Shown: piece after piece, positions 1-22,417 of the stretch
Position numbering within the stretch: position 1 is the stretch's first letter
How the letters are laid out: every line of letters begins with the position of its first letter
Virus record (IMG/VR): IMGVR_UViG_3300012952_003931
Coordinates: 1 to 26,411 of that record
Direction: 5' to 3' (one strand)
Origin: a virus
Lineage: Duplodnaviria; Caudoviricetes
DNA length: 26,411 nt
The notes under the pieces: model-generated
What the model saw: only the letters and a program-made list of their open reading frames with translations
What the model was told of the DNA's origin: nothing
Databases searched by the model: none
Translations under genes and position numbers: made by a program

Positions 1-713
1 CAATTGTCATCAGGATTACACCTGCCACCATCCTTCTGAGGCTTTGTATAGTCAGCAACCCATAAAGGGTAATCTTTGAGCTGGCCAACATCATTCTTTA
101 AGTAACCGCGAACGTACCATTTTGCAGTATATACTACTGCACGCAAGCCGGTTTCGTTCTCAAGCTCTTTAAGCCATTCTAGAGCCCATTGGCGATTGTG
201 GTCTGGATCTCCCTTGACCCCAGCCTCTAAATCCAGCACTGGAAGCATGTCACCTGAAGGTATACAGCCACCGTAATATTTCAAAAAATCTTGAACTTCA
301 AGCTTTGGGTCTAAGCTCCCGCCAAGTTGAGGCGATGGAAAATGATACCCTCCAACTAGTATACCGTTTTCCCTACAACCTTGCAAGTTTTGCTGAACTT
401 TCGGGTCGACATAATCAACTCCTTGAGATACCTTCGCCCATACAAACTTTACTTCGTTAGGATCAACCTTCCCCCAACGTATATTACCATTCCAATGGCT
501 AACATCAATACCAAGATGAACAGGCACACCCATCGTGCCTAAAGTTACAGGGCCAACGATACCATCGACCGCTAGCCCATTCCTATTTTGATAATCTTTA
601 ACTGCAGCGTATGTCTTAGGGCCAAAATCCCCATCTGCAGATATTTTTAAGATAGCTTGAAGGCGCCTAACCTCCTGCCCTTTGTCTCCAATCCTCAAAG
701 TATAGTAGTACAT
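1..713 (-). CDS. GH25 muramidase (endolysin-type) with N-terminal peptidoglycan-binding domain; 3'-truncated by the window edge
   Basis: Not in the ORF track because it has no stop in the window; translated by hand from ATG at 713 (SD GGGAGAG): MYYYTLRIGDKGQEVRRLQAILKISADGDFGPKTYAAVKDYQNRNGLAVDGIVGPVT (PG_binding_1 DGxxGPxT repeats), then GIDVSHWNG, GGYHF, PVLDLEA (DxE catalytic motif), VVYT and PLWVADY, all typical of GH25. Confidence 0.92.
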   Translation of the reverse strand, partial: MYYYTLRIGDKGQEVRRLQAILKISADGDFGPKTYAAVKDYQNRNGLAVDGIVGPVTLGTMGVPVHLGIDVSHWNGNIRWGKVDPNEVKFVWAKVSQGVDYVDPKVQQNLQGCRENGILVGGYHFPSPQLGGSLDPKLEVQDFLKYYGGCIPSGDMLPVLDLEAGVKGDPDHNRQWALEWLKELENETGLRAVVYTAKWYVRGYLKNDVGQLKDYPLWVADYTKPQKDGGRCNPDDN

Positions 714-724
714 TAATCTCTCCC

Positions 725-1129
725 TCAAGACCTATCATCTTTTACCCCTGTTCCATACCATCTAGCATTTCGGCCACGTACATCGTAATGAGTGAAAGTA
801 GTATATAATCCCACCCCGCCTGAATGCATCTTTCCCTCTTTAATGAGAGAAACGATGATCGCCTTTACTTCTTTTGGCGACACACCTGAAATTTTAATGT
901 CGGCGGCTTTGGCTAGCATATGCTGGCTTTTCTTTGCACCACCAATCTTTTTATTATATTCCGGAGATCTATACCCGCTAATCACCCGAACCGGTTTGCC
1001 AATGTGATCCCTCAAAACCTGTAGGTTCTCAGCCAATAGCCGCACATTTTCCATATACAAGTCAGGGACGTCACTACCGTCCCTGCACTTAAATTCTCTT
1101 AATTTGAAATTATCAGTTAATCTACCCAT
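725..1129 (-). CDS. Zn peptidase of family M15 (M15A/Peptidase_M15_3-like), putative peptidoglycan peptidase
   Basis: NFKLREFKCRDG, ISGYRSPEYNKKIGGAKKSQHMLAKAADI (SxHxxxxAxD) and FTHYDVRG motifs. Start moved from the track's TTG 1171 (inside aceA) to ATG 1129, which has a GGAG SD. Confidence 0.88.
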   Translation of the reverse strand: MGRLTDNFKLREFKCRDGSDVPDLYMENVRLLAENLQVLRDHIGKPVRVISGYRSPEYNKKIGGAKKSQHMLAKAADIKISGVSPKEVKAIIVSLIKEGKMHSGGVGLYTTFTHYDVRGRNARWYGTGVKDDRS

Positions 1130-1139
1130 AGTCTCCAAC

Positions 1140-2378
1140 TCAAAATTGTTCAGCCTCGGTTGATTCTTCAAGTGCTAACGTTGATGTGTCACCTGAAGAT
1201 ATAACCTGAGCCACTGCATCAAAATACCCTGTCCCAACCTCACGCTGGTGCCGAGTTGCAGTATATCCCTCTCCCTCAGCTGCAAACTCTTTCTCTTGTA
1301 GTTCTGCGTATGCTGACATGTCACGACCTTCATAATCCTGAGCTAACTTAAACATATGATAATTCAGGTTATGAAACCCTGCTAAAGTGATGAACTGAAA
1401 CTTGTATCCCATCTTGCCGAGCTCGCTCTGAAACTTTGCGATTGTCTCATCATCTAAATTCTTCTTCCAATTGAACGAGGGTGAGCAATTATATGCTAGA
1501 AGCTTTCCAGGAAACTGCTTATGGATTGCAGAAGCGAATGCCCGGGCTTCATCAAGACATGGCGTGCTAGTTTCGCACCACAAAAGATCTGCATATGGGG
1601 CATATCTAAGGCCTCTAGAGATTGCCATCTCTAAGCCGCCAGTAATCCTATAGAACCCTTCGGAAGTCCTCTCTTTTGAGGTTATGAACCTGGTGTCTTC
1701 ATCGTCTATATCGGTTGTTAAGAGGCGGGCACTATTAGCATCAGTCCTAGCAATAACCAGCGTTTCGGTACCCATTACATCTGCAGCGAGCCTAGCTGCG
1801 ATAAGCTTCTTAATAAATTCAGATCCTGGAACTAGTACTTTTCCACCAAGATGACCGCACTTCTTTGCAGAGCTCAGTTGATCTTCAAAGTGTACGCCGC
1901 CAGCACCGGCTCTAATCATAGACTTCATAAGCTCAAAAGCATTCAGAGAGCCTCCAAACCCTGCTTCCGCATCGGCAACAAGCGGAACAAACCAATCCCT
2001 AACTGCAGAACCCTCATTCTCAGCCCACTCAATTTGATCTGCCCTACGGAGAGAATTATTGATTTTTTGTACCAGCATGGGAACGCTGTGAACTGCATAT
2101 AGGCTTTGGTCAGGGTACATTTCATGTGAATCATTAGCATCGGCTGCGACTTGCCACCCTGAACAGTATATGGCAGGAACGCCTCCCTTTACCATCTGCA
2201 TTGCCTGATTCCCTGTTACGGCACCCATCGCATGAACGTAGTCTTTCTCATTCAGAAGCTTCCACAGCTTTGCTGCCGATCTTTCTGCTAGTACATAGTG
2301 CTCAGGCATTGATCCCTGGAGGCGAACTACGTCCTCTTTACTATATGGACGTTCAACATTATCCCATCTATTTGACAT
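1140..2378 (-). CDS. aceA: Isocitrate lyase (short bacterial ICL1/AceA type, 412 aa)
   Basis: Catalytic loop [64 protein letters not shown]-terminal STEAEQF. KKCGH plus the W/F/T residues (LLWCET, QFIT) indicate ICL rather than methylisocitrate lyase PrpB (KRCGH). Confidence 0.98.
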
Positions 2379-2395
2379 TTTCTATATTAATCCTT

Positions 2396-3958
2396 TTAGT
2401 TAGTAGTAAGGTACTCGTATGCTGGAATCGTTAAAAAGTCTTCCAGTGTACCTGACGTGCTTAAATTCTGAAATATCTCAACTGCGGTGTCAAGCAACTC
2501 GCTTGACTCCTGTCCTGCTTTCCACTCTGCAATCAGAGACGTAACAAGATCATGATCAATCTTGGTGCCGTTACTCATCTCTGCACCATGGCGGACCCAT
2601 TGCCACACTTGGGTTCTTGATATCTCTGCAGTCGCTGCATCCTCCATCAAGTTATATAGAGGAACACAACCGTTTCCTGATATCCATGCATGAATATATC
2701 GGATGCCTACATCAATATTTTGAAGAAGGCCCTCTCGGGTGATATCACCAGACGGCATCACAAGCAAGTCTTCTTCTGAGATTTTGTAGCTTGTTTCTTT
2801 CCCGATCTGGTTACAGTCCCGCATGTATTCATCAAAAATATCCTTTGCTAGACTAACTAACCCGGGGTGTGCTACCCATGTTCCGTCATGACCGTCGAGC
2901 ACTTCTCGTCGTTTATCTTCGCGTACCCTCTCTAAAGCTAGATGGTTTGCATTGTCATCACCGCGAATTGGAATCTGTGCAGCCATACCCCCCATAGCAT
3001 GAACCCCCCTGCGGTGACAAACCTGGATCACCCTTTTAGAGTATGAGTTCATGAAATGTGCTGTCATTCCGATCTCAGCACGATCTGGAGTAATTCTGTC
3101 TGGATGGGCACGAAGGGTCTTAATATAGCTAAAAATATAGTCCCACCTTCCGCAGTTTAAGCCGGCGGAGTGATCTTTTAGCTCGTACAGTATTTCATCC
3201 ATCTGAAAAGCTGCAGGTAATGTCTCTAGCAAAACTGTTGCCCTTATCGTCCCTCGAGGAATATTCATGTAGTCTTGTGACCAGTTGAATATGTCATTCC
3301 ACAATCTTGCCTCAGCGTAATGCTCTAATTTCGGAAGATAAAAGTATGGGCCACTCCCTCTATCCACGAGCTCTTTTGCGTTGTGATAAAAATGTAGCCC
3401 AAAATCAAAAAAAGAAGCAGGAATTGCCAGGTTGTCAACAAGGAAATGAGACTCTTCTAAGTGGAGCCCTCGAGGGCGCACAAAAAGTACTGCATGCTCT
3501 GCATTGAGCTTGTATAAACCCTTTGTTGGATGTTGGTATGTTATTCTCTTTCGAACTGCATCTCTCAAGTTCCTTTGCCCTTCAAGGGCATTTACCCAAG
3601 TAGGTGACATTGAATCTTCAAAGTCTGCCATAAACACATTCGCACCTGAGTTTAGTGCATTAATCACCATCTTTCGTTCAGGTGGCCCTGTAATCTCTAC
3701 GCGGCGGTCCCTGATATCTTCCGGAATGGGTGCTGCAACCCAGTCATCGGTCCTGATATTCAGTGTCGTATTATCATAGGACGGAAGCTGCCCACTGTCA
3801 TACTTTTCCTGGCGCGATTTGCGGTTATCTAAAAGCTCCTTGACACGCGGCCGAAATTGCCTAGACATTTCAGCAAGAAACTCCATCGCTTGACGATCTA
3901 AAATATCCGGATATGTATCGCTACGTTCCAGCCTTACACCTATGTGATTAAATAACAT
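2396..3958 (-). CDS. aceB: Malate synthase A (520 aa)
   Basis: DRRVEITGP, KMVINALNSGANVFMADFEDS, VRPRGLHL, GPYFYLPKLE, GLNCGRWDYIFSYIK, HAMGGMAAQIP, GHDGTWVAHPGL, LMEDAATAEISRTQVWQW, DFLTIPAY. Size matches MSA rather than the ~720-aa MSG. SD GGAGG. Confidence 0.98.
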   Translation of the reverse strand: MLFNHIGVRLERSDTYPDILDRQAMEFLAEMSRQFRPRVKELLDNRKSRQEKYDSGQLPSYDNTTLNIRTDDWVAAPIPEDIRDRRVEITGPPERKMVINALNSGANVFMADFEDSMSPTWVNALEGQRNLRDAVRKRITYQHPTKGLYKLNAEHAVLFVRPRGLHLEESHFLVDNLAIPASFFDFGLHFYHNAKELVDRGSGPYFYLPKLEHYAEARLWNDIFNWSQDYMNIPRGTIRATVLLETLPAAFQMDEILYELKDHSAGLNCGRWDYIFSYIKTLRAHPDRITPDRAEIGMTAHFMNSYSKRVIQVCHRRGVHAMGGMAAQIPIRGDDNANHLALERVREDKRREVLDGHDGTWVAHPGLVSLAKDIFDEYMRDCNQIGKETSYKISEEDLLVMPSGDITREGLLQNIDVGIRYIHAWISGNGCVPLYNLMEDAATAEISRTQVWQWVRHGAEMSNGTKIDHDLVTSLIAEWKAGQESSELLDTAVEIFQNLSTSGTLEDFLTIPAYEYLTTN

Positions 3959-3986
3959 ATGACCTCCGCTACGTATTGATTGTATG

Positions 3987-4925
3987 CTATTTATCCAAAC
4001 AGTATAATGGAGTTTTCTTTACTTCTTCCAAAAGACCAACGACGTCTAGTCCTGCACAATCTATTTTTCTGCGTGTCAAATTGTAGTGATTGATGAAACC
4101 GCTAAATTCAGAACGCTCGCAGCGTGGATCGACAGCCTCCACAAGCCCCCCATCATCATCTAACGGACATTCTAAAGGTATACCAATACCAATATGAATT
4201 GCCTTCCACAATGCCTTCAGTGCCTGCAGCTGGACATCATAAAAATCTAGGTGCTCGCCCAGGCCTCTTCCATGACACTTTATTTCACCCTTTGCCCTAA
4301 CCGGGCGGGGCCCAAAACCCTTTCTTTCATACCAATCCTGGTATTTCGGATAGTATGCATTTGCGATCTCAACGCCGATGCTTTCTCGATTCCACTTTCG
4401 GCCACCGGCCTGCCACGCCGCATGCTGTGTATCTAGCAACTGATAGATTGTGCCGTCATTATCGATACCAAAGTGAATTGATATCCCTCTCTTAGCGATG
4501 ACTTTAGACATAGATTCAGTTGAAAGACAAACGTCCCAATGATTTACAAAGAAGTGCGGGTTTCTATCTGGCTTTCCTGCGTAGCTCGTGTATGTTCCGT
4601 CTCCACAGGAAAAGCCTCCCGGCTCGTCCCACAAAACCACCTGAGGCCACTCAATTGGAATAAACTTGCCATTGTGCACGATGTGCTTGTCTGTCATCGA
4701 GTAAAGGCTCCTTCGAGGCTCATGATCTGAGATGTTTGCTTCCCTCTCCGTCCAGACCCTTCGGTAAGTCATCGGGCCGACTAAGCCGTCAGCTTTAAGC
4801 CCATTCTTTCTCTGCCACTTTTTAACAGCGGCAACTAGAGCGTCATCAAACTCATCGCATCCAAACCAGCTTGGCTCCCACCCTAAGCTATCTGAGCTAG
4901 ACTTATTATAGAAATCCTTATCCAT
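3987..4925 (-). CDS. N-acetylmuramoyl-L-alanine amidase (Amidase_2-like) with N-terminal peptidoglycan-binding domain
   Basis: AVKKWQRKNGLKADGLVGPMT (PG-binding); VNHWD, SIHFGIDNDGTIYQL, AWQAG, NRESIGVEIAN, FINHYNLTRRKIDCAG (putative H/H/C Zn ligands). Confidence 0.88.
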   Translation of the reverse strand: MDKDFYNKSSSDSLGWEPSWFGCDEFDDALVAAVKKWQRKNGLKADGLVGPMTYRRVWTEREANISDHEPRRSLYSMTDKHIVHNGKFIPIEWPQVVLWDEPGGFSCGDGTYTSYAGKPDRNPHFFVNHWDVCLSTESMSKVIAKRGISIHFGIDNDGTIYQLLDTQHAAWQAGGRKWNRESIGVEIANAYYPKYQDWYERKGFGPRPVRAKGEIKCHGRGLGEHLDFYDVQLQALKALWKAIHIGIGIPLECPLDDDGGLVEAVDPRCERSEFSGFINHYNLTRRKIDCAGLDVVGLLEEVKKTPLYCLDK

Positions 4926-4933
4926 ATTTTCAC

Positions 4934-5536
4934 CTACTCGAAATCAATTGAAACGTCAACCTTAATCTGCAAAGACGGCACCCTTAGCTGGTTGGCCATC
5001 CCATGCTTTTTTGCTTCTTTGGCATCTAAAAACCAGTCTGCATGCTTCTTTTTATCAACTATCTTCATAAAGTAATCATCTTTCTTGCCACAGTTTTGAG
5101 CCATCATAGTGTAGATAATGGTATTTAAGCGATCTGCCTCAAGGGCCCCAGCTTTAAGTTCTTCTACCTTCCCAAAGTCCATGCTGCTAACATCATGAAT
5201 CATTACAGTTGCGTTTGGATCCATAAATCGATATCCTTCTTCACCAAATGAGAACAAAACGGCTCCGCACGACATTGCTTTTCCTTCTACGATCGTGGCA
5301 ACAGGCAACTCAGCATGCTTTATTGCACTAATCATTGACATAAGGCTATAGACCTGCCCACCGTAAGAATCAATGATCACAGGAATGATTTTCTGCCCTG
5401 TGTTGTGAGCTTGAGCTATCTCCTGATCGAACTTTTTGGCTGCCTCTTCATCGAACTTATTTACCCTGATTATGACGGGAGGCTTCCGTAACTCTATTTC
5501 TTTAACAAGGGGTGATATTTCTGATTTCCACTTCAA
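4934..5536 (-). CDS. clpP: ClpP-like serine protease (S14 family)
   Basis: IDSYGGQV, GKAMSCGA (Ser), VMIHDVS (His), ADWFLDAKEAKKHGM (Asp). The TTG start is supported by SD AAGGAG about 7 nt upstream. Confidence 0.85.
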   Translation of the reverse strand: MKWKSEISPLVKEIELRKPPVIIRVNKFDEEAAKKFDQEIAQAHNTGQKIIPVIIDSYGGQVYSLMSMISAIKHAELPVATIVEGKAMSCGAVLFSFGEEGYRFMDPNATVMIHDVSSMDFGKVEELKAGALEADRLNTIIYTMMAQNCGKKDDYFMKIVDKKKHADWFLDAKEAKKHGMANQLRVPSLQIKVDVSIDFE

Positions 5537-5559
5537 AGCTGACTCCTTCTACCTATCGC

Positions 5560-8046
5560 TTATCCACATTTACCATGACCACATGCAGTACATGTAACAC
5601 ACCCTTCTTGATATATCAGGGTGTCCTCTGCACCACAGTTTTCACAAACTGTTTTTCCCGGCACTGTGCCGTCTTTAATGTAGTACTTTAAAACTCTAGA
5701 AATTACTTTCGAAAAAGAGAACATGTCCATCTCTCTATCTTTTTGCAATTGCTCAACGACATAATGAATTGGTGCACCATGGCGAAGCGCTAGAGATATT
5801 GTTCTAGTAAACCCTGCATGGTTAGGGTTGTCAAAAACATCGACGATATCCTTAATTAGAATTTCATCACCATTTTTTCCAATCCTAAGATCATACCTGG
5901 AATTCTTTGTCTTATAGTGGCGTTTAATGATGGTGCCTCTTTTGTACTTCTTAGGAATCTCTATGTACTTCTGAAGGCCTCCCATAATCTCATAAGGTCT
6001 ACCATCCAATCTACCTACAAGAATTGTCCAGGCTTCACCTTTAATACTTGCATGATGAATAGAGCACTCTAATTCCTCCGGGCGATCCGGTGCTTCATGA
6101 GATTTGAAGGTATCCTCACCGGAATCGGTGGCCGAAACCAAAACGCCACTCCTACAACCGTCCCTGTAAATTGTTACACCTTTGCAACCACTCTTCCAGC
6201 CCTCTAAATAAACATTCTTGACCGTCTCAACGTCAATATCTGACGGTAAATTGGTCGTGTTCGAAATTGCATGACAAACCCATCTTTGAGCTGCTGCTTG
6301 CATTTTTACCTTTTGAACCCAATCAATCTCATTTGCAGTCGCGCCACTATATGGGCTCATCTCAACAAGCTTTTCATTACTCATTGACTCGCTTTCTTCT
6401 AGGTTGGATGCTCTCATCCACTCCTTGAAGCAGTGATGATACACAGTATATTCTTGCCATCGATCACCGGAGTCGTCAACAAAATCAACCCTGCCCTCAA
6501 CATCACTCTCAGTTAACTTTTTTCGTCTCATATAATGAAGCATAAAAGCCGGCTCAATTCCAGAAGTTGTCTGAGTTAAAACAGAAACAGACCCAGCCGG
6601 AGCAGTCGTCGTGAGGGCAATATTCCTACGACCATATTTCTTACTCATCTCTCTTACGTCAGGTGCAGCTTCCCAAATTCTTTCAAGGAAAGCGTGGCCG
6701 CGCTCTTTATTATGATCATGTACCTTAAAAGCGCCACGTTCTTTTGCCATGATACATGATGATCTATATGCGCTTGTCGCTAGCACCCTATAGAATTTCT
6801 CAACGACGCCTACAGACTCTTCAGAACCATACCTGATCCCCAACGCTGCCAGTGCATCACCAACGGCAGTGACGCCGAGGCCAGTCCTTCTTCCTAAAAG
6901 GGCCTGCGTCTTAATATTTTCCCATAAATCTTTTTCGATCTGCTTTACCGGGCCAGGCTCAGGATCACTTTTAATCTTGGCAATAATTTTGTCAACTTGC
7001 TCAATTTCTAGATCGATCATATCGTCCATAAGACGTTGGGCTTTCAGTACTACTTCTCCCATAAGCTTATCATCAAACTCAGCCTCTGGAGTAAACGGGT
7101 TTTTGACAAACGATAGCAGGTTTACGACCATTAGCCGACAGCTGTCATAGGGAGAAAGGATTATCTCTCCACAAGGGTTTGTCGACTGCGAACCAAACCC
7201 CTCTTGCTCATATATGTCTGATGGTGTATATTTCTTTGCATTATCCCAAAACAGTAGACCAGGCTCTGCACATGCATGCGCGGCTTCAATAATTTCTTGC
7301 CATAACTCTCTAGCGTCGACATTCTCAGACATGTCAGGTTCTGTGCTGTCAACCGGGAAACGAAGCTCTACACTGCTGCCAGCCTGAACTGCATTCATAA
7401 ATTCATCAGACAAGCGAACTGAAATATTCGCACCGGTTACCCTAGTAAGGTCACGCTTGATCTTTATAAAATCACGAACCTGCGGGTGGTGAACTGATAT
7501 CGTTAGCATCAGCGCACCGCGCCGGCCATTTTGTGCAACCTCCCTACAAGAATTTGAGAAGCGATCCATAAAGACCTCTATCCCGTCCGTAGTCCTCGCA
7601 CAATTTGCAGTAGTTCTTCCTCGAGGGCGTATCGTTGAAACATCAAATCCGACGCCACCACGCCGCTTTGCTATCTGGACTAGCTCCTGGTCTGTCTTAA
7701 GAATGCCGCCGTAAGAATCATACGGAGACTCTATAACAAAGCAATTTGAAATTGATTGCACCTGATGTGGGTTTCCAATTCCTGACATTGGTGATCCTTG
7801 CGGGATCACATAACTAAAATTCTTAAAGAGATTATAGATCTCGTCTTCACTAAGCGGATTGGGATATTTTTTCTCTATCCTGGCAAACTCAGTTGCTAAG
7901 CGCCTATGCATGTCATCGGGAGTCGACTCATACAGATTACCGTCTTTGTCAGTCAAAGCATATTTCGTAACAAATACGTTAGCGGCTAGCGCGTCCCCGC
8001 CAAAATACTCAGATGACTTCTGCTGTGCTTCTTCAAATTCAATCAT
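5560..8046 (-). CDS. nrdJ: Class II (adenosylcobalamin-dependent) ribonucleotide reductase
   Basis: SNCFV, RRGALM, TNPCGEI, SCRL, APAGSVS, TSGIEP, AISNTTNLP. KGVTIYRDG lacks the class I YY pair. C-terminal TSCPD-like region and CxxC...CxxC zinc ribbon ending KCG. No nrdB in the window. Confidence 0.93.
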   Translation of the reverse strand: MIEFEEAQQKSSEYFGGDALAANVFVTKYALTDKDGNLYESTPDDMHRRLATEFARIEKKYPNPLSEDEIYNLFKNFSYVIPQGSPMSGIGNPHQVQSISNCFVIESPYDSYGGILKTDQELVQIAKRRGGVGFDVSTIRPRGRTTANCARTTDGIEVFMDRFSNSCREVAQNGRRGALMLTISVHHPQVRDFIKIKRDLTRVTGANISVRLSDEFMNAVQAGSSVELRFPVDSTEPDMSENVDARELWQEIIEAAHACAEPGLLFWDNAKKYTPSDIYEQEGFGSQSTNPCGEIILSPYDSCRLMVVNLLSFVKNPFTPEAEFDDKLMGEVVLKAQRLMDDMIDLEIEQVDKIIAKIKSDPEPGPVKQIEKDLWENIKTQALLGRRTGLGVTAVGDALAALGIRYGSEESVGVVEKFYRVLATSAYRSSCIMAKERGAFKVHDHNKERGHAFLERIWEAAPDVREMSKKYGRRNIALTTTAPAGSVSVLTQTTSGIEPAFMLHYMRRKKLTESDVEGRVDFVDDSGDRWQEYTVYHHCFKEWMRASNLEESESMSNEKLVEMSPYSGATANEIDWVQKVKMQAAAQRWVCHAISNTTNLPSDIDVETVKNVYLEGWKSGCKGVTIYRDGCRSGVLVSATDSGEDTFKSHEAPDRPEELECSIHHASIKGEAWTILVGRLDGRPYEIMGGLQKYIEIPKKYKRGTIIKRHYKTKNSRYDLRIGKNGDEILIKDIVDVFDNPNHAGFTRTISLALRHGAPIHYVVEQLQKDREMDMFSFSKVISRVLKYYIKDGTVPGKTVCENCGAEDTLIYQEGCVTCTACGHGKCG

Positions 8047-8066
8047 TCTTCCACCGTATTCTTATT

Positions 8067-9476
8067 CTAATCAGAATTTACATCCCGTAATTCTTTCCAC
8101 TTTTTCTTCAGTATCTTTTTCATATCTTGCTCATCTTGAGCGACAGCTTCCTGCAGTGTCAATTGAGACTCATCCAACAGCTCAACTATAGACATTGACG
8201 TATCCATGTGGATGGGAAACACAAGGCCATCTCTCCCTGCACGGTTCTTTGCGATAAATAGCCGACCAGTGCCGCCAGACTTCTCCATAGGCTTACGAGA
8301 CAGAGATATAACAAGATCTGCAACCATAGCTTTTCCGTACGCTTCAGACATATTTTCAAGACCGACAATATCAGAGTTTGCAGATTCCCTGTTTGCCTGC
8401 GATGCGGTCCAGATAGGTATATTCATATCCATAGCAAGGTTTCTTAACTCTTCATAAATCAACTTTAACTCATGGCGTAATGAGTCATAGCTCTTTGTAG
8501 ATCTCATAATATCAGCGTAATCAATAATAATAACACTTGGAGCGAAACCTTTTAGCAAAAGCTTTTCAATGTGGTTCCTGATTGTCACTACTGATGCAGA
8601 CCCTGTCGGGTATTCCTTAATGATAAGCCTTCCCAGATCGTTATTCTCAGTGTAGAAATCAAGTACTCTCTTCTTATTTTCTCTAACGTCGTTACTCGGT
8701 ATCTTGCACAGGTTTGAATCATACCTGATCCCGACAGCAGTTTCTGATAGTTCAAAGGTATAGTGTACCACATTCTTTCCTGCGCGGAGAGCGTTTGCGC
8801 CCATGGCAACGAGCCAGTGAGATTTACCGACGCCAGTATTCGCAGTCACAACACCAATTTCACCCCTGCCTAAGCCGCCCTGCAGGATATCGCTAGCGTC
8901 CAGCCTTTCAATACCGGTAGGGCATACCATGCGGTTGAACTTAACAAACCTTGCCTCTGCATCTTCAAAGAAGTCATGGCCGATCGAGTTAGGCATTCCG
9001 ACAGCAACAGCCTCCTTCATAAGATCAACAACACTTTCAAACTTGTCTGTTGCAATTAGCTCAACTGCATGTTCTAGAGCGCCCTTAAACGCCTGCCTTT
9101 TGCAAAAATCTAATGATTTGTCTTTCACAAACTCAAGATCACTCATGTCTGGGCTTGTCTTAACCCTATGCAGGTACTCAACAATCTGATCTCGCAAAAT
9201 AATGTCAACACCCTCTTTTAGATCATCCTTGATAATCGTAATCAGCAAAGACAACGTTGGAAAGCACTTGTATTTATGAAAATATGAGAAGTACTTTTCT
9301 GTCAGGTAGTTTAAGTACTTAACATCGAAAAAACTTGGTACCATTACTTCGACCATCTGGGCTGCCCATGTATGATCTGTTACTAATCCCTGAAAGATCT
9401 TTTCTTGAAACGACTTTCCGTAGTGGCTAAAGGTTGCGGTGCTATCTTCAATTATCTCTTTTGCTGAGTGCAGCAT
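8067..9476 (-). CDS. Replicative SF4 helicase, DnaB/T4 gp41-like
   Basis: GGLGRGEIGVVTANTGVGKS (Walker A), YTFELS, IIKEYPT, IIIDYAD (Walker B), WTASQANR, IAKNRAG. Confidence 0.93.
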   Translation of the reverse strand: MLHSAKEIIEDSTATFSHYGKSFQEKIFQGLVTDHTWAAQMVEVMVPSFFDVKYLNYLTEKYFSYFHKYKCFPTLSLLITIIKDDLKEGVDIILRDQIVEYLHRVKTSPDMSDLEFVKDKSLDFCKRQAFKGALEHAVELIATDKFESVVDLMKEAVAVGMPNSIGHDFFEDAEARFVKFNRMVCPTGIERLDASDILQGGLGRGEIGVVTANTGVGKSHWLVAMGANALRAGKNVVHYTFELSETAVGIRYDSNLCKIPSNDVRENKKRVLDFYTENNDLGRLIIKEYPTGSASVVTIRNHIEKLLLKGFAPSVIIIDYADIMRSTKSYDSLRHELKLIYEELRNLAMDMNIPIWTASQANRESANSDIVGLENMSEAYGKAMVADLVISLSRKPMEKSGGTGRLFIAKNRAGRDGLVFPIHMDTSMSIVELLDESQLTLQEAVAQDEQDMKKILKKKWKELRDVNSD

Positions 9477-15402: not shown

Positions 15403-15407
15403 ACACA

Positions 15408-15436
15408 ATATTACAATGCTAGATAAGGGATGTTCA
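15408..15436 (-). promoter_or_regulatory. Putative promoter for the PolA-like gene, probably giving a leaderless mRNA
   Basis: Minus strand TGAACA-N17-TAATAT, then 5 nt to the ATG at 15402; no SD. Confidence 0.5.
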
Positions 15437-18433
15437 TTATGAGCCCTCTGCAGGGCCCTCTTCTTCGTTGATAGCAGCTATAGCATTTTCTACATTGCTT
15501 ATGAGTGACGTGTACTTTCCAAAAGCATCAAGCTGAACTAACTTTATCTTTGTCTCAAATTTTCCAGCGCCTAATGAATGATCAATACCGGTTACTGCAT
15601 ACACATTGTCAACATTCGTCCCGGTCCCAAAGTCTATAAAGAACTGTTGACCAAATGTCATGACAGGGCAGCCGATCAGCGTCAGGTCGCACTTAACAGG
15701 TGAAACAGACAGCGGCACGCCTGAGTCTCTAGCTCCTTGGGCAGTCGTTCCAGCGCCCATTCCACCCCGCATCATGTTGACGGACGCTAACTGGGGGTTA
15801 TTCATACTAGCAACATTTGCATTTAGTACCGCTGAATTTTGAGAACCGTATATGATACTAGGCATAGTCCTGGAGATAAAGTTTTTCAGCGCAGGAAACC
15901 CACCATTGATTCTAAACTTCTTATTTGCCATCTCTTCTACAGAAATATTCCCAGATGAGGGAGAAACTGAGGGGATGGCTTCAAGGAGCCTTTCATTAAT
16001 TGCCTTGTTTAGCTGCTCCATAAAGTTTAGTTCATGCTGGTTATTAGTCTCTTGATCATTATCTTCAGATGCCTCGCGCCTAGCAGCACTAGCTGCGCTA
16101 CCTAAGACGCCAACCGAATTTGACTGCGCGGCGCCGAGCATTGCACCAACTGACTCATATGCAGTGCACTGCTTATCATATATGTGGATCCTCATCACTG
16201 TCTGTGCACCACCACCTGACGCGCTTGAGCTGCTTCCTGGAGGGGCTGCTGCGTCATTAACCCTAACTGTCTCAATGTACATCGTGAGCTGAGGCATCTT
16301 AAAGACGAGCTCTTCTCCTTCACCATACGCATCTTCTAGCCTTTTTTGCTTTTCGCCGTACAGCGCTGTTGCATCCTCGTAATCTTCCTTGATCTTCTTG
16401 TTTCCCTCATCATCAGTCTCATATAAGGCTGCCATACCCCAAGCATCAGCTGCTTGATTACTAATGAAGTTACTTTTTATGAAACCAAGAAATGCCTTAA
16501 TCGGTATGTTGGCAGTCGTCTTTGTTTTCTCTTTAAACTTTGTTTCAAACTCGCGAACGTTGATTGGAAACTGCGCGATGTTAAAGTCTTTTACGTATGA
16601 AGCTTTTGAGTTAAATGCGTAGAACAATATCTGTATATCATCAAAGCGGCCTGTAGCTGCAAGAGGCAGGCCACAAAAACTTGTCATAAGCTTTCCTAAT
16701 GACACATGTGTAGGAGGTGAAGCATCAGCGTTGACAGTGACAAAGCTAGCAGCAGACGATATGCTTCTTAGCCAGGGATCTGGAGTTCTAGAGGATCCGG
16801 ATCCATTAACAGTTGCCATCTTTGCTGCAACTGCAGCTGCAATCGTCTGTTGGAGATCTGCAACCGCACCAGATCTACCGTCAGAGCCGTATAGGTCTTC
16901 AAGGTTCGAAACAACCTGGCCGATATCAGAGTCTGCATCCGCATTTCTATTGTCTCTCATAAACTCTACAATCTTCTGGCGAGTTTCGTCATCAATTGAC
17001 ATCGACCTTGATGTATCAGATGCAGAAGAAAGAAACGTCTCCCCGCTAACATTCTCTGAACCGCCAGATGAACCCTGCACACGAGCGCGCAAGACGGACA
17101 TAGCCTCAGTCAACGTTCCTACCGCCTCTAAAGCATCGTCTACCCCGTTACCCTTACTAATAGAGGTCGTATCAATCGCGGCTGCGCCCTTCATTGCTAG
17201 CTTGATATCAACATTTACCTGACCGACTTCATCGAACTTAAACGACGAATTCACGATCATATATTTTTCTCTACACCTCATTGAGTCTAAGAATATTCCG
17301 AACGCATTTTCGCTAGCGGCTCCCCCGTCAGGATGTGACCACCCATACTCTAGAATAATCTCGGTGCTACCATAAAGATCAGGCTTTACAAACGGAGCAA
17401 TCTCAGAAAGCCTAGACCTATCATGTAGTATAAGACTAAAGTCGGCTGTCTTATGAGACATAAAACCCGTTGTCGGGGTCACATTAATCTTGAGGCCCTG
17501 AAATGACATAAACGGGCGGAACTTATCAATTACTCCAGCCCCTCTTGCTCCGCCAAGTGCCGGTGCTTCTTCATCTTCATTCTGACCATCTGAAAATGCA
17601 TACGCCTCATAGTCATGATAATCCTCGTCGGCATTTACTAATGTTTGTGGTGCAGTAAAAAGCTCCATGCCTGCAGATGCTACTGCTGGAAGGGTGGGAT
17701 CGCCACTAGGGTTTTCGGCATCTTCGCCTCCGGGCAGAGGAGATTCCGGATTTTCGTTGAACTCTGCCAATACATCAGCAGAAACTGCTGATGCAAATTT
17801 ATACTCGACATCTCCGGAAGCTAACTGTTTTTGACCCATTAAAAACTGTGATATCGACATCGTTTGGATCCTGCCGTCGGCAGACAACGGAGCTTTCGGC
17901 GTCACAATTGTCATATCGATATATGGAACGCACTTACTGATCTCTATAGTTGGAATTGCATTACAAAATAAAGATATAGCACCAGTATCCCTATTCGACA
18001 GGTTTAGCTTTGAAGGCCAGATCTGTGTCAGCGAAAGGCCGGGAGCAGTCTTACTCGGCGTGGAAACTTCCTGGTTTACCGCTTCAGACGCGCATACCTC
18101 CTTAATAGAGCAATCCGTCTTTAGCGCGTCACTGTCCCCCCATTCCGGTTCATATGAAACTAGAAGGGTATGTGACAATGCCTCTGTAAACTCTGTACCG
18201 GCTCCGGCTGCAGCATCATTTACTTTTTGTAGGAATTGAGGAATAAGGACGCCCCCCTCCTGAATGTCTAGAAAAATACTGGCTAGCTCAAACTCAGCCG
18301 GCGTTGGCTCTTCTTCCATAGAGTCAGCCGTCGGTGAGCCAGGTGACACAAGGCGCGCCATGAAATTGTTTTTTCCAATTGCACCATAATACTTGCCAAG
18401 TAACTTTACGGCAATGTCAAGCTTCGTAGGCAT
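15437..18433 (-). CDS. Baseplate hub-like tail protein (gp27/Mu gp44/P2 gpD-type), 998 aa
   Basis: Lies after the LysM/wedge gene. IILEYGWS motif and C-terminal LTLIGCPVMTFGQQFFID...NVYAVTGIDHSLGAGKFETKIKL are typical of hub/late-control-D C-termini. Confidence 0.65.
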   Translation of the reverse strand: MPTKLDIAVKLLGKYYGAIGKNNFMARLVSPGSPTADSMEEEPTPAEFELASIFLDIQEGGVLIPQFLQKVNDAAAGAGTEFTEALSHTLLVSYEPEWGDSDALKTDCSIKEVCASEAVNQEVSTPSKTAPGLSLTQIWPSKLNLSNRDTGAISLFCNAIPTIEISKCVPYIDMTIVTPKAPLSADGRIQTMSISQFLMGQKQLASGDVEYKFASAVSADVLAEFNENPESPLPGGEDAENPSGDPTLPAVASAGMELFTAPQTLVNADEDYHDYEAYAFSDGQNEDEEAPALGGARGAGVIDKFRPFMSFQGLKINVTPTTGFMSHKTADFSLILHDRSRLSEIAPFVKPDLYGSTEIILEYGWSHPDGGAASENAFGIFLDSMRCREKYMIVNSSFKFDEVGQVNVDIKLAMKGAAAIDTTSISKGNGVDDALEAVGTLTEAMSVLRARVQGSSGGSENVSGETFLSSASDTSRSMSIDDETRQKIVEFMRDNRNADADSDIGQVVSNLEDLYGSDGRSGAVADLQQTIAAAVAAKMATVNGSGSSRTPDPWLRSISSAASFVTVNADASPPTHVSLGKLMTSFCGLPLAATGRFDDIQILFYAFNSKASYVKDFNIAQFPINVREFETKFKEKTKTTANIPIKAFLGFIKSNFISNQAADAWGMAALYETDDEGNKKIKEDYEDATALYGEKQKRLEDAYGEGEELVFKMPQLTMYIETVRVNDAAAPPGSSSSASGGGAQTVMRIHIYDKQCTAYESVGAMLGAAQSNSVGVLGSAASAARREASEDNDQETNNQHELNFMEQLNKAINERLLEAIPSVSPSSGNISVEEMANKKFRINGGFPALKNFISRTMPSIIYGSQNSAVLNANVASMNNPQLASVNMMRGGMGAGTTAQGARDSGVPLSVSPVKCDLTLIGCPVMTFGQQFFIDFGTGTNVDNVYAVTGIDHSLGAGKFETKIKLVQLDAFGKYTSLISNVENAIAAINEEEGPAEGS

Positions 18434-18436
18434 TCA

Positions 18437-18730
18437 TCACCCCACGACCTTCGCTATGTCTCCTAAAGAGGGAAGAAAAAGTACTGTCCCAGGAGGACAC
18501 TGCATTGCCCAACCCACACCAGAAGCCGCTGCTATGGCCCACCACAATCGTGCGTTTCCGTATATACGTCCTGCCAGAATATCAAGGCGCTCGCCCTCTT
18601 TTAGTACATAACGATCCGCTGCAATCTTACCTGATAAGACTCTTTGCCTTATTATTGTACCTGCCCTAGCGGTACCATACATTTTGCCGCCGCGGATCTT
18701 TGTCGTTCTAGAATACCTACGCAATGCCAT
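18437..18730 (-). CDS. LysM-like baseplate wedge protein (T4 gp53 / P2 gpX-like)
   Basis: YVLKEGERLDILAGRIYGNARLWWAIAAASG...PGTVLFLP; SD AGGAG. Confidence 0.85.
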   Translation of the reverse strand: MALRRYSRTTKIRGGKMYGTARAGTIIRQRVLSGKIAADRYVLKEGERLDILAGRIYGNARLWWAIAAASGVGWAMQCPPGTVLFLPSLGDIAKVVG

Positions 18731-18741
18731 GTGTTAATCTC

Positions 18742-21700
18742 CTATGGCCCACTATCGCCGCCGGCCGGCGAATCTTCATCACCGGTTGCTCCAAGCTTGG
18801 CCTTTTGAGCTAAGTAATTTTGTACGATCGGATTTCCTGGGTCGAGGGTATTAAGTGTACCCCATGGATCTCCAGCAATTCCGTTCATAATCTTGCCGAC
18901 GTTGTACAAAGGTGCCCTGTTGAACCCAGATGCATCAAGACCTGGCGGAATATCATGTATCGGCGCATAGCTAATACTAATTTTAATAAACTTTGGTGCT
19001 CTCGATCCGAGCTCAGTCTCCCAAGTTGAGTCCGCATAGTCCATATCAAGCGACTCGATAAACCCTGCAAGACCACGGCCCATAGTAGATCTAAAAGACC
19101 TAACAATCGGGTTTTTATCATCTGCGTAGAAGTCTGCAGCTGACGTTGGTGAAGTCGTGGATGATGATATTGTGACAGGAAAATTGATGTCGCTAGGATC
19201 AATTATAAGATCTTCATGTGTACATGTTATGTTATGAATATGATCAGGAGCATAAGGATCCATAGGATACCCAAGTTCAGTGAAGTTAACAACATATACC
19301 TGGGTTTGGCCATAACCTGGACTTCCTGGAATAGGATCTGCATTCCTCGTCTTGATCTGGACTTGGGCCAAAGCGTCCGTCCTTAACCCATATGCCCTTG
19401 TAGTAATATGAGTATTGGGAGGATCGTCTGCCTCATCTCTACATATGTACCTATTCGGCCGGAGGAAAGCCTTGTCTGAGACTTGATATCCATATTGGCT
19501 ACCTTCATCGCCACGAGGATCCGTCGTTCTTAACTCCTCTTCTAGAGCTGCGCGCTCCGCAGATGCTGCAGATGCCTCTCCGGCACTGTCATATGATGTG
19601 CCATCGACGTCATATGTAGTGGTCGTTGACGCCGGCGTACCAATATTGTATTCTGGATTATCCCCTGACGAAGGTAAGCCACAGCCGAACAGTCTGGCAA
19701 GGTTAAACTTTGAATAGTTTGTCCGAATCACATCACCAATTCTCAATCGTACCATAGGGCTAGCGGTCGGAATCTGTGAGAACGGCATGATAAACCTATC
19801 ATCACCGGCGATCATGGGCTTTCCCTTTGACCACTGGGGGTACATTAGCGTGGTGAGCTTATTAATATCATACCACATACAATCAAAATCAGACTCAGAC
19901 GTTGCAGCCAAAATAAAATCAACGCTTATTTTTCTTTTTGTCTTTTTATACACGTATATGTCATCGATGCGACCATACCCACCGCTAGTAGAATAGTCTG
20001 CACTATAAGAGTCCTTGATGGATCCGATGAAAGCATTAAATGCGATTATTTCGTTTGTTCTTAAATCCTGAATGTAGAATGGAACATACTCTGCCTCAAG
20101 CTCATTCTCTATCATGTGAACGTAGTCTGCGCTTATTCGGTTTCCTGTCATACCGTTTATTGTAGATGCCTCAGGTTTCCCGATATCAGCAGCAGCTAGT
20201 TGCCTAGTTGCACCAGGACCTACTGCTTTTCTGCTCAACGCGCGCAAATAACCAACAGACATTCCAGCAGCTGGACCCATTCCGTACTGCGCTGCTGCTG
20301 TCAACAGGCTCGTCGGGAGTAAATACCTGCTTGGAAGAGCATTATGCCTCCATGCCAATGCGTTTGAAGGAACACCTGTAGTACCTGGTTTGACCCTTCC
20401 TTTTGCCTGCCTAGTACCGGGACCATCATCAATCTTATTGATTGGTTTTCCTGCAGGCCCGAACCGGTATGTTTCAGCCAGCAGTGCAGCATTACCCATT
20501 TGTGCCATAACCATCAAGAAATTAAACGTCGATGAGCTAAATACAATCTGCAGAGGATATATTATTCCACGCTCACCAATCCCTAAAGCACCAAGTCCCA
20601 CTCCAGTTGCTACAGCGGATGCTAAGGACGCAACCTGTAGTGCATCTCTCAACGCGTTCCTGATTATAACGGAGTAGAATCCAGGTGCACCATAGATCAG
20701 TTTTGCATCGCCGAATAATCCGGGTGCCATCGTAAGAATTAGTGTCGTTAGCGTCTCAGTGGAACCAGGGAATGTTTCAAACCCTAAAAATGTCCGGATT
20801 CCCTTTGCAATACAGCTCTCAAAATCATAATCTGTTCTGGGAATCCCAAGGTCTGTCAGAAGCCTCTGGTACTGGTCTTCGCGGACGTATTGCCCGAGGA
20901 CCATCTCGTTTGGTGCGGAGGGCCTTCCTACTCTTGATGCAGGTGAGGGGGCTCCGCCGTCTGCATGACGAATTGTTTCAAGCAAGATATTATAAGCTAT
21001 TGATGCAGTGACCAATGCAAGTGATCCTGCAACTGCCAAGCCAGCCATACCAAAAGGGTAGGCAATTAGTGCGTTTGAGGCGAAAGGCTCAAGGTGCGAG
21101 TTTAATTGCCCGTATGATGTTTGCTCATCAATTGAGTCATCACCTAGATATGCATCCTCACGCAGATCAGAGTCAGTGAGGGTTGTAGTTTGAGGAGCAC
21201 CATCTGCCCCATCGATACCACCACCGACGCCACCAGGAGGAATCCTTGCCCGCAAGCGATCGGTACCGACTTTCATTACCATAAGCTGCGCGGGTGAAGG
21301 CAAGACTTGCTCTATAGTAGCAGGAATTTCAAACCCGGATACAAAACCCGTATGTCCTGTCGCTGCAAATATAAGCGACGCTCCTACCTTCCTAAGCTCA
21401 TCCAATGGATGACTAGGCCCGTCAGCATCATATACGCCGAACTCACCGTTTGTTGGTAATACAGGATCGCTGTACCTACCGTCCTGAATATAAGGCGAAT
21501 CTGTGGAGTTGCTAAACCGATTCGTCTTTAATATCCTCGATATTTTTGAATTGAGTTGGTTATGGGGGCTAGAAACTACTGACTGGCCTGAGGCTCCGGA
21601 ACCAGGGTCGTTTCCAACGACACCTGCCAAGAGTTCGTGGCCGTCCGCTTTGCTACTCTTATTAACTAGTTCACCTAAAGTAGGAGCGCCATGGTCAAAA

Positions 21701-22086
21701 TTGCCACTATCAGATACCGTCTCAAACAACGCTCTTGCATCTTCATCTACAAGATCAATAAACTTCCTATCTACAGCACCTTCCGAGCCTCCTGTGATAA
21801 TTTCAGGTGTCTGGGATGGGTCATCATAAGGACTTGGCGCTTCCTGCAACCCAGGCTCAATAGCAAAATAATTTCTAGAGCCCGGACTGGGTGATGCAAT
21901 CGCATCGCCTTCCGTCATTGCGCTTAAGTAGTCGGCCAATGTCGATCTAGTCGCCTCCGATATGTCTTGAGGCTGTGGGACTCCCCCCGCCGCGGCGCCT
22001 CCCTCTTCGCCGACCGGTGAGGCTCCTCCTGGTTCTGCCTGAGGTGTAGGCCAGAACTCTGTTTCATAATCAGGAGGATTCGGCAT
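18742..22086 (-). CDS. Large tail/baseplate protein containing a tail-tube-initiator-like domain (gp48/gp54/gpU-type), 1114 aa
   Basis: VPFYIQDLRTNEIIAFNAFIGSIKDSYSADY...YGRIDDIYVYKKTKRKISVDF...NKLTTLMYP...PMVRLRIGD and GFIESLDMDY..STWE...PKFIKISISYAPIH; canonical position between the tape measure and LysM genes. Confidence 0.65.
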   Translation of the reverse strand: MPNPPDYETEFWPTPQAEPGGASPVGEEGGAAAGGVPQPQDISEATRSTLADYLSAMTEGDAIASPSPGSRNYFAIEPGLQEAPSPYDDPSQTPEIITGGSEGAVDRKFIDLVDEDARALFETVSDSGNFDHGAPTLGELVNKSSKADGHELLAGVVGNDPGSGASGQSVVSSPHNQLNSKISRILKTNRFSNSTDSPYIQDGRYSDPVLPTNGEFGVYDADGPSHPLDELRKVGASLIFAATGHTGFVSGFEIPATIEQVLPSPAQLMVMKVGTDRLRARIPPGGVGGGIDGADGAPQTTTLTDSDLREDAYLGDDSIDEQTSYGQLNSHLEPFASNALIAYPFGMAGLAVAGSLALVTASIAYNILLETIRHADGGAPSPASRVGRPSAPNEMVLGQYVREDQYQRLLTDLGIPRTDYDFESCIAKGIRTFLGFETFPGSTETLTTLILTMAPGLFGDAKLIYGAPGFYSVIIRNALRDALQVASLASAVATGVGLGALGIGERGIIYPLQIVFSSSTFNFLMVMAQMGNAALLAETYRFGPAGKPINKIDDGPGTRQAKGRVKPGTTGVPSNALAWRHNALPSRYLLPTSLLTAAAQYGMGPAAGMSVGYLRALSRKAVGPGATRQLAAADIGKPEASTINGMTGNRISADYVHMIENELEAEYVPFYIQDLRTNEIIAFNAFIGSIKDSYSADYSTSGGYGRIDDIYVYKKTKRKISVDFILAATSESDFDCMWYDINKLTTLMYPQWSKGKPMIAGDDRFIMPFSQIPTASPMVRLRIGDVIRTNYSKFNLARLFGCGLPSSGDNPEYNIGTPASTTTTYDVDGTSYDSAGEASAASAERAALEEELRTTDPRGDEGSQYGYQVSDKAFLRPNRYICRDEADDPPNTHITTRAYGLRTDALAQVQIKTRNADPIPGSPGYGQTQVYVVNFTELGYPMDPYAPDHIHNITCTHEDLIIDPSDINFPVTISSSTTSPTSAADFYADDKNPIVRSFRSTMGRGLAGFIESLDMDYADSTWETELGSRAPKFIKISISYAPIHDIPPGLDASGFNRAPLYNVGKIMNGIAGDPWGTLNTLDPGNPIVQNYLAQKAKLGATGDEDSPAGGDSGP

Positions 22087-22411
22087 TACTCTTCTCCAAA
22101 ATATCTGCGACCATCGACGCGCTTGGTGGTCCCTGTGATGTCTTAAGCGCTTCCATCAAATTTCTGACGTCCTCTGGCGTTTTAATGCTATCCCTAATTA
22201 TATCTATAACTTTTCCATAGTTCGAGATGATCTCATCTATAATCTTTTTTGAACCTGGATCACCAGCAGAGCCCTCGCCCCCCTTTGATATCCATTCATA
22301 GATGGGGCTTTTCGTAATCATATTGGATAAAAATTCTTCTCCAGACACACCTTCCGGAATGTCATAGCCAAACTCATAATTTTTCACATCGTGTTTTTTA
22401 TCTTCAGCCAT
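22070..22411 (-). CDS. Hypothetical 113-aa protein in the tail module
   Basis: Strong SD GGAGGAGG; fills the gap between the tape measure gene and the next gene (17-nt overlap). Confidence 0.75.
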   Translation of the reverse strand: MAEDKKHDVKNYEFGYDIPEGVSGEEFLSNMITKSPIYEWISKGGEGSAGDPGSKKIIDEIISNYGKVIDIIRDSIKTPEDVRNLMEALKTSQGPPSASMVADILEKSNAESS

Positions 22412-22417
22412 GGTCTA

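What the first reader, a model, noticed from the sequence alone, without database searches (positions are those of the whole stretch)
1140..3958. Complete glyoxylate shunt (aceB-aceA) encoded in a phage-like genome
Seen: full-length malate synthase A and isocitrate lyase with intact catalytic motifs (KKCGH; EDAATAEISR, GRWDY), in bacterial aceBA order, 17 nt apart, on the same strand. Phage-type genes flank them on both sides: PG hydrolases, then ClpP, NrdJ, gp41/gp32-like and tail genes. Established: these two enzymes alone form the shunt that bypasses the decarboxylating TCA steps and turns acetyl-CoA into C4 precursors. The genes have been reported in giant eukaryotic viruses, but I know of no characterised two-gene shunt in a bacteriophage; that is a limit of my recall, not a search result. 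Inference: an auxiliary metabolic module that lets the infected cell convert acetate/fatty-acid carbon into oxaloacetate/aspartate and gluconeogenic sugars for dNTP synthesis, or cope with iron or oxidative stress.
Basis: partly seen in the sequence, partly recalled or inferred. Interest (0 to 1): 0.93.

Follow-up and report, generated by a model that had tools for sequence, protein, structure and literature searches.

The report
Glyoxylate-shunt pair in marine jumbo phage
A fragment of a large uncultured ocean phage carries intact, side-by-side genes for both glyoxylate-shunt enzymes, which likely help infected cells turn two-carbon units into building blocks, but this gene pair has already been published for marine and huge phages, so it is a solid further example and not a discovery.

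Summary
Observation confirmed. Window 2396-3958 (malate synthase A) and 1140-2378 (isocitrate lyase) are intact, 17 nt apart, above NCBIfam cut-offs, with catalytic residues conserved. The contig is a T4-like jumbo phage fragment: a colinear 178-kb relative has terminase, portal, capsid and sheath. Contigs from other seawater runs bridge all three junctions, so it is not a chimera.

It is not new. Nishimura 2017 described a phage aceBA operon, and a 2025 preprint lists 22 huge phages with both genes. This scan also found the pair several times on other DNA.

What this work adds: the pair is optional (4 of the 80 closest clpP loci; a complete 293-kb relative lacks aceA) and is under purifying selection in relatives. 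All sampled phage malate synthases fall in one clade with no labelled cellular member. The aceA and aceB trees conflict (AU p 3e-5 and 3e-10), so phages swap the two genes separately.

Host, expression and activity are unshown. An anaplerotic role in lytic infection is the likeliest reading; an iron-economy role is the main rival.

The parts
2396..3958 (-). aceB, malate synthase A, 520 aa
   Evidence: TIGR01344 752.6 bits > 594.5; Pfam MS_N, MS_TIM-barrel, MS_C; R161 and D440 align to E. coli R166 and D447; upstream GGAGG
1140..2378 (-). aceA, isocitrate lyase, 412 aa
   Evidence: NF011645 730 bits > 562; KKCGH 172-176, C174 aligns to E. coli C195; F329 and T331 align to E. coli F349 and T351
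3987..4925 (-). PG-binding plus Amidase_2 peptidoglycan hydrolase, 28 nt upstream of aceB; present in most family members whether or not they carry aceBA
4934..5536 (-). ClpP-like protease (TTG start); conserved anchor of the variable slot in which aceBA sits
5560..8046 (-). class II ribonucleotide reductase NrdJ
   Evidence: TIGR02504 495.6 > 399.95
725..1129 (-). Peptidase M15 cell-wall peptidase, 134 aa, 10 nt downstream of aceA
   Evidence: PF08291, phrog_894
3..713 (-). PG-binding plus GH25 lysozyme, cut by the contig end
   Evidence: PF01183, PF01471
8067..12548 (-). replication/recombination block: gp32, UvsX, 5'-3' exonuclease, DnaB-like helicase
   Evidence: same order in relatives
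15437..26410 (-). tail region: tape measure (cut by contig end), 1114-aa and 998-aa unknown proteins, baseplate wedge subunit
   Evidence: PHROGs; colinear with G009, which also encodes terminase, portal, Gp23 capsid and sheath

Best explanation
This is an intact, optional aceB-aceA gene pair in a T4-like marine jumbo phage, which likely acts during lytic infection as a glyoxylate shunt that saves carbon for phage building blocks. Shown: both genes are whole, keep their catalytic residues and lie in a tightly packed same-strand run behind nrdJ and clpP; relatives carry the pair in the same slot or lack it; the two genes have been exchanged separately among phages. Established chemistry: isocitrate lyase splits isocitrate into succinate and glyoxylate, and malate synthase joins glyoxylate to acetyl-CoA to give malate, skipping both CO2-releasing TCA steps. 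Inferred: the pair is co-transcribed with the replication block; with no aceK found, extra enzyme would compete with host isocitrate dehydrogenase by amount; the net C4 output would feed oxaloacetate/aspartate and gluconeogenesis for nucleotides, amino acids and sugars.
For: Equivalog scores above cut-off. All 22 AceA and 10 AceB positions I checked match E. coli K-12. They include C195 (catalytic in Salmonella ICL, PMC8098682 passages), the ICL-type KKCGH rather than PrpB KRCGH (PMC11982470 passages) and R166/D447 (PMC11347633 passages); the other positions were chosen from recall. dN/dS in two unsaturated pairs of relatives: aceA 0.050 and 0.085, aceB 0.088 and 0.063, against 0.02-0.05 for clpP, nrdJ and dnaB. 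GC3 0.40 and 0.42, and codon-use correlation 0.77 and 0.74, match long phage genes such as nrdJ (0.40; 0.76). 25 of 50 IMG/VR aceA loci have aceB directly upstream, 15 of those 25 in the same clpP/nrdJ context (several are near-duplicates). Intergenic gaps from nrdJ to GH25 are 8-28 nt. In G009 the pair lies between glutamine synthetase and ThyX. glnA lies in the slot in 6 of 12 aceBA-positive versus 9 of 42 negative loci, and phosphomannomutase in 4 of 12 versus 0 of 42.
Against: No enzyme assay, no transcript and no host. thyX is not enriched beside aceBA (3 of 12 versus 10 of 42, p 1.0) and glnA only weakly (p 0.07), so the nucleotide neighbourhood may only reflect a general insertion slot. 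The window's own slot holds cell-wall hydrolases, not glnA or thyX. Most relatives do without the pair (76 of 80 clpP loci; 52 of the 54 with at least 5 kb downstream), so it is not needed for replication. dN/dS could not be computed for the window itself, because synonymous sites are saturated against L011 and L001. Sigma-70-like sites are at chance level (31 versus 26 +/- 5).
Confidence: 0.6

Rival explanations
1. Iron or redox economy: the phage pushes flux through the shunt mainly to keep an iron-limited or oxidatively stressed host respiring, and precursor supply is secondary.
For: Iron limitation induces the shunt in marine heterotrophs (PMC6618146 passages). Fe-S assembly genes lie in the same slot more often when aceBA is present: iscA 6 of 12 versus 5 of 42 (p 0.009), iscU 5 of 12 versus 6 of 42 (p 0.053), either gene 8 of 12 versus 7 of 42 by recount. 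G009 also has a superoxide dismutase domain.
Against: The loci are related (L017, L020, L029 and L031 form one tight clade) and the two groups were found by different searches, so these p-values overstate support. The window has no iscU or iscA between nrdJ and clpP. Aconitase and succinate dehydrogenase, which the shunt still needs, are Fe-S enzymes (recalled).
Confidence: 0.22
2. Isocitrate lyase is the selected gene (succinate supply, or clearing 2-methylisocitrate), and malate synthase is a helper that removes glyoxylate where the host cannot.
For: Phage ICL without MS is commoner: 98 ICL versus 22 MS genes in huge phages; 25 of 50 IMG/VR aceA loci show no adjacent aceB, some cut by contig ends. 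aceA is exchanged independently of aceB. Bacterial ICL can have side activity on 2-methylisocitrate (PMC11982470 passages).
Against: aceB is as constrained as aceA. In the clpP set no locus had only one of the two genes (4 with both, 76 with neither). The ICL has the ICL-type motif and is far below the PrpB cut-off.
Confidence: 0.1
3. The pair benefits a lysogen or pseudolysogen by promoting host growth, as Nishimura et al. proposed for their phage.
For: Proposed in PMC5332604 (passages) from LPS genes and a zeta-toxin homologue. G009 also has many sugar-nucleotide genes and a weak zeta-toxin hit.
Against: No integrase among 20 window proteins or the 111 G009 proteins scanned, of 148 called (that record is 44% complete). 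The pair sits inside the replication/lysis run of genes. The authors state they had no other evidence for lysogeny.
Confidence: 0.06
4. Artefact: a chimeric assembly, or a piece of cellular chromosome.
For: The window is a 26-kb fragment with no terminase or capsid gene of its own; neither protein has a PHROG.
Against: All three junctions are bridged in other runs. The same order occurs in 15 other viral loci. The best cellular AceA found is 73% identical, while viral ones reach 87%. The colinear relative has all head genes.
Confidence: 0.02

Closest known systems
aceBA operon of marine environmental viral genome TARA_ERS478052_N000008 (178,632 bp; Nishimura et al. 2017, PMC5332604)
   Same: Adjacent malate synthase A and isocitrate lyase in aceB-aceA order in a large marine phage with T4-like structural genes; host unknown. 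IMG/VR locus L018 has the same gene lengths and gaps as its genes 198-194 (77, 131, 502, 411, 216 aa; gaps 28, 11, 15, 542 nt), so I take it as that phage or a very close relative. Its AceB falls in the same phage clade as the window's.
   Different: AceA is 67% and AceB 54-55% identical. There is no clpP/nrdJ/amidase context at L018, and the window's 1114-aa tail-region protein has no match in that 57%-complete record, so it is probably another phage family.
Huge phages with isocitrate lyase and malate synthase (HPGC preprint, 10.1101/2025.02.27.640493)
   Same: 22 huge phages with both genes, adjacent in 20, from marine, soil and plant-related habitats. The window's family reaches 293 kb.
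   Different: The section read gives counts only, with no trees, selection or gene-swap analysis. Its Supplementary Table 10 could not be seen, so this phage or its kin may already be listed there.
Bacterial aceBA(K) operons, e.g. E. coli K-12 aceBAK and Myxococcota aceBA
   Same: Same enzyme families and order; 62.5% (AceA) and 48.7% (AceB) identical to E. coli. All 20 best Myxococcota loci have aceB beside aceA.
   Different: No aceK in the window, the first 50 viral loci or 5 related viral records. The enzymes are slightly shorter, GC is about 45% against 56-72% in the Myxococcota loci, and the phage AceB sequences form their own clade.
aceAB reads in Pacific Ocean viromes (Hurwitz et al. 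2013, PMC4053976) and ICL/MS of Mimiviridae (review PMC9270025)
   Same: Virus-encoded glyoxylate-shunt genes proposed to reroute host carbon (passages).
   Different: Those are virome-level detections without genome context, or eukaryotic giant viruses.

Membership tests
Isocitrate lyase (AceA, NF011645/TIGR01346) | Score above the curated equivalog cut-off | tested here: met
   730 > 562 and 549.8 > 275.9
Isocitrate lyase (AceA, NF011645/TIGR01346) | KKCGH loop with catalytic Cys (not the PrpB KRCGH) | tested here: met
   K172-K173-C174-G175-H176 = E. coli 193-197; motif and Cys195
Isocitrate lyase (AceA, NF011645/TIGR01346) | [quoted passage not shown] | not testable with these tools
   needs an enzyme assay
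Methylisocitrate lyase (PrpB) | PrpB equivalog cut-off and KRCGH motif | tested here: not met
   97.2 < 354.4; the motif is KKCGH
Malate synthase A (TIGR01344) | Score above cut-off; about 530 aa; not malate synthase G | tested here: met
   752.6 > 594.5; MSG 24 bits; 520 aa
Malate synthase A (TIGR01344) | Catalytic Arg166 and Asp447 (E. coli numbering) | tested here: met
   R161 and D440; residues
Malate synthase A (TIGR01344) | Condensation of glyoxylate and acetyl-CoA to malate | not testable with these tools
   needs an enzyme assay
Phage aceBA auxiliary metabolic operon (Nishimura 2017 type) | Adjacent, co-oriented aceB-aceA | tested here: met
   17-nt gap, same strand
Phage aceBA auxiliary metabolic operon (Nishimura 2017 type) | Flanked on both sides by phage genes in a non-chimeric tailed-phage genome | tested here: met
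   head genes shown in the colinear relative G009, not in the window
Phage aceBA auxiliary metabolic operon (Nishimura 2017 type) | Expressed during infection and altering host flux | not testable with these tools
   needs infection transcriptomes and isotope labelling
Enterobacterial aceBAK operon | aceK (IDH kinase/phosphatase) after aceA | tested here: not met
   the gene after aceA is an M15 peptidase; no aceK match in the window; PF06315 in 0 of 5 related records, 37-78% complete, with the control ringing in E. coli

The most novel reading that the evidence does not exclude
Marine jumbo phages keep their own long-resident glyoxylate-shunt gene pool. One phage-only malate synthase A lineage circulates with several isocitrate lyase types, and the two genes are swapped separately at a hot spot behind nrdJ-clpP. 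The window's operon is such a mosaic. The pool works without AceK and travels with Fe-S assembly genes as an iron-economy kit for a Myxococcota-like host.
Probability: 0.3. Interest if true: 0.45.

Novelty: new member of a known kind. Interest (0 to 1): 0.18.

Why it matters
A phage-supplied shunt would let infected marine bacteria keep carbon that the TCA cycle would release as CO2, which bears on ocean carbon budgets. The pair itself is published, so this copy matters as a clean, full-length candidate for the first enzyme test, and as evidence that the two genes form a phage-resident pool that is reshuffled gene by gene.

Tried and rejected
1. Expression: no RNA holder was listed among 24 runs; this is no evidence either way.
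2. Several independent captures of aceA from cells: first suggested by split viral clades. One clade of the aceBA-type viral AceA is not rejected (p-AU 0.49 and 0.50), so multiple captures are not shown. Only monophyly of the syntenic phages' AceA is rejected (p-AU 4e-6).
3. Donor and host: the best cellular AceA is 73% (an unnamed Myxococcota genome; 84 of 301 sampled had a match). The GTDB scan covered 8 of 64 parts, best 69%, and the metagenome scan 5 of 64 parts. The sister group of the phage clades moved between trees and no labelled Bacteroidota genome was sampled, so Myxococcota is a lead only. The 81% hit labelled Cytophagales (P0023) lies on contigs of at most 8 kb and inside the viral clade; I read it as a probably mis-binned phage contig, untested.
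4. Isolated relatives: no phage record in INPHARED showed the aceBA pair in a phage setting. The two-gene hits were Salmonella genome contigs, plus short unannotated fragments. The 998-aa protein had no match; helicase and capsid best hits were at most 39% and 47%.
5. thyX as support for a nucleotide role was dropped after the control. The 'iscU or iscA' p-value used 8 of 42 by a counting slip; the count is 7 of 42.
6. The promoter scan was at chance level; no tRNA in the window.
7. A joint at 1238-1381 in run X9 has only 23 letters on its short side, and 19-40-base matches with loose ends in X1-X3 look like other organisms; both were ignored.
8. No fold or complex was predicted: the families are unambiguous by sequence.
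9. No paper was found for phage C48C1.

Full report
Observation. The window holds two long ORFs on the minus strand: 2396-3958 (520 aa) and 1140-2378 (412 aa), 17 nt apart. The first is malate synthase A (TIGR01344, 752.6 bits, cut-off 594.5) and the second isocitrate lyase (NF011645, 730 bits, cut-off 562). Both are far below the cut-offs for malate synthase G and PrpB. Against E. coli K-12 they are 48.7% and 62.5% identical, and all 10 and 22 positions checked are conserved. These include R166/D447 of malate synthase A (PMC11347633, passages), the ICL-type KKCGH loop (PMC11982470, passages) and Cys195 (PMC8098682, passages); the remaining positions were picked from recall.

The contig is phage. 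All 20 proteins I scanned are on the minus strand: tape measure, baseplate wedge, PolA-like, gp32, UvsX, exonuclease, DnaB-like helicase, NrdJ, ClpP-like protease, amidase, aceB, aceA, M15 peptidase, GH25 lysozyme and several unknowns. The window has no head genes. However, 15 of these 20 proteins match in the same order in the 178-kb record G009, which encodes a T4-like terminase, portal, prohead protease, Gp23 capsid and sheath (111 of 148 called ORFs scanned). A relative with direct terminal repeats is 293,409 bp, so the family is jumbo-sized. No cultured relative is close.

It is not a chimera. One contig of the possible source run spans 634-9000. In 2025 seawater runs, which may be one campaign, the M15/aceA junction is bridged in 3 of 4 runs laid, aceA/aceB in X2, X3 and X4, and aceB/amidase in X2 with no differences. 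Of 50 IMG/VR aceA loci, 25 have aceB directly upstream and 15 of these share the nrdJ-clpP context, several being near-duplicates. GC3 and codon use of both genes match the long phage genes.

The pair is optional and maintained. Among the 80 closest clpP loci (of 380 found), 4 carry both genes, 76 neither and none only one; of the 54 with at least 5 kb downstream, 2 carry the pair. Five large relatives searched whole, two of them at least 90% complete, had no aceA match (that call held no positive control, but the same query matched 84 genomes). In two unsaturated pairs of relatives dN/dS is 0.05-0.09 for both genes; it is saturated for the window's own comparisons.

Evolution. In a 44-row tree all 25 viral AceB rows lie on one side of a 98-support branch. 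In a 112-row tree the 21 viral-labelled rows, including L018, fall in one 33-row clade (97) whose other 12 rows are unlabelled. I dropped 11 loci as duplicates from that tree, which also removed their identical twins such as L001, L006 and L027. Cellular sampling was partial, so 'phage-only' is provisional. For 19 phages with both genes the two trees conflict. The window's AceA groups with L002/L004/L007/L010/L022/L030 (100/100) and its AceB with L014-L017/L020/L021/L029/L051 (100/99); each grouping is rejected on the other gene (p-AU 2.8e-5 and 2.6e-10; the groups were named after seeing earlier trees). L004 and L010 have AceA 78-79% identical to the window but DnaB only 41-42%, whereas phages with DnaB near 70% have AceA at 64-68%. 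L021 and L024 are 99.5% identical over 11 kb, yet 31 of their differences fall in the last 230 nt of aceA, after which L021 has about 700 nt that L024 lacks. So genes are swapped at this slot, partly using aceA as the homology anchor (inference). A single origin of the aceBA-type viral AceA is not rejected. The donor is unresolved: the best cellular AceA is 73%, in Myxococcota, with unstable placement.

Mechanism. The chemistry is established: the two enzymes bypass both decarboxylations and turn two acetyl-CoA into one C4 acid. Gaps of 8-28 nt from nrdJ to the lysozyme suggest one transcript with the replication block (inference; the promoter scan is at chance level). No aceK was found, so flux would be diverted by enzyme amount or by the host's own control (inference). 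I favour anaplerosis for nucleotides, amino acids and sugars (0.6): the slot lies behind nrdJ, and in G009 between glnA and thyX. The control weakens this: thyX 3 of 12 versus 10 of 42, glnA 6 of 12 versus 9 of 42, phosphomannomutase 4 of 12 versus 0 of 42, iscA 6 of 12 versus 5 of 42, iscU 5 of 12 versus 6 of 42 (loci with clpP at least 70% identical and at least 4.8 kb downstream, identical clpP removed; related loci, not independent). The Fe-S excess gives the iron rival some weight (0.22), since iron limitation induces the shunt in marine bacteria (PMC6618146, passages).

Prior art. Nishimura et al. 2017 (PMC5332604; passages and supplement rows) reported the first aceBA operon in a complete viral genome, and L018 reproduces its gene lengths and gaps exactly. 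The huge-phage preprint (10.1101/2025.02.27.640493; passages and section 10) counts 98 ICL and 22 MS genes, adjacent in 20 genomes; its supplements were not seen and may list this family. Hurwitz et al. 2013 (PMC4053976, passages) saw aceAB in viromes, and giant-virus examples are reviewed in PMC9270025 (passages). Searches listed no biochemical test of a phage pair and no study of gene-wise swapping; I saw only listings for most hits (25 of 201), and the library lacks most subscription papers. This scan has noted the same pair on other DNA at least eight times.

Verdict. The feature is real, intact and phage-borne; it is a new member of a published kind. Interest 0.18. The remaining value lies in the untested enzymology, the unknown host and the gene-by-gene reshuffling.

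Noticed in passing
L134:7995-9236 (OQ984149.1, Phage C48C1, Kyanoviridae, 156 kb): A full-length isocitrate lyase (55% to the window's) annotated only as hypothetical protein, with no aceB nearby and a NifU-like gene 3 kb upstream. No paper found.
   Followed up: partly
L021:11000-11930 versus L024:11000-11240: Near-identical phages differ by a burst of 31 changes at the 3' end of aceA and by an extra methyltransferase gene behind it in L021: a likely recent recombination tract.
   Followed up: partly
window 980-1049: One contig of run X6 carries 13 listed substitutions clustered inside the M15 peptidase gene, an allele patch absent from X2, X4 and X5.
   Followed up: no
G009:C1:170290-170884: The colinear relative encodes a tmRNA and tRNA-Ala, plus DnaE-type polymerase, sigma-70 factor, chaperonin, peptide deformylase, split transketolase, glutamine synthetase, ThyX and many glycosyltransferases.
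   Followed up: no
window 14194-15408: A 404-aa PolA-like protein with only the polymerase-domain match, lying between tail and replication genes, conserved in G009 (33%) although that phage also has DnaE.
   Followed up: no
window 15437-18433 and 18742-22086: Two large conserved proteins (998 and 1114 aa) with no Pfam, PHROG or NCBIfam hit flank the baseplate wedge gene; the second is shared by 4 of 5 aceBA phage records tested.
   Followed up: partly
L184, L188, L214, L022, L217, L219, L227: The ribonucleotide reductase in the slot before clpP is replaced in some relatives: about 50% identity instead of 65-80%, or a different type at 22-23%.
   Followed up: no
L012:1927-3147 and L013:9983-11224: Related phages with aceA alone inserted inside the replication block (between gp32 and uvsX, or between uvsX and the exonuclease).
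   Followed up: no
L008, L009: Viral aceA-only loci (51% GC) whose AceA nests among Burkholderiales sequences, apparently a separate capture.
   Followed up: no
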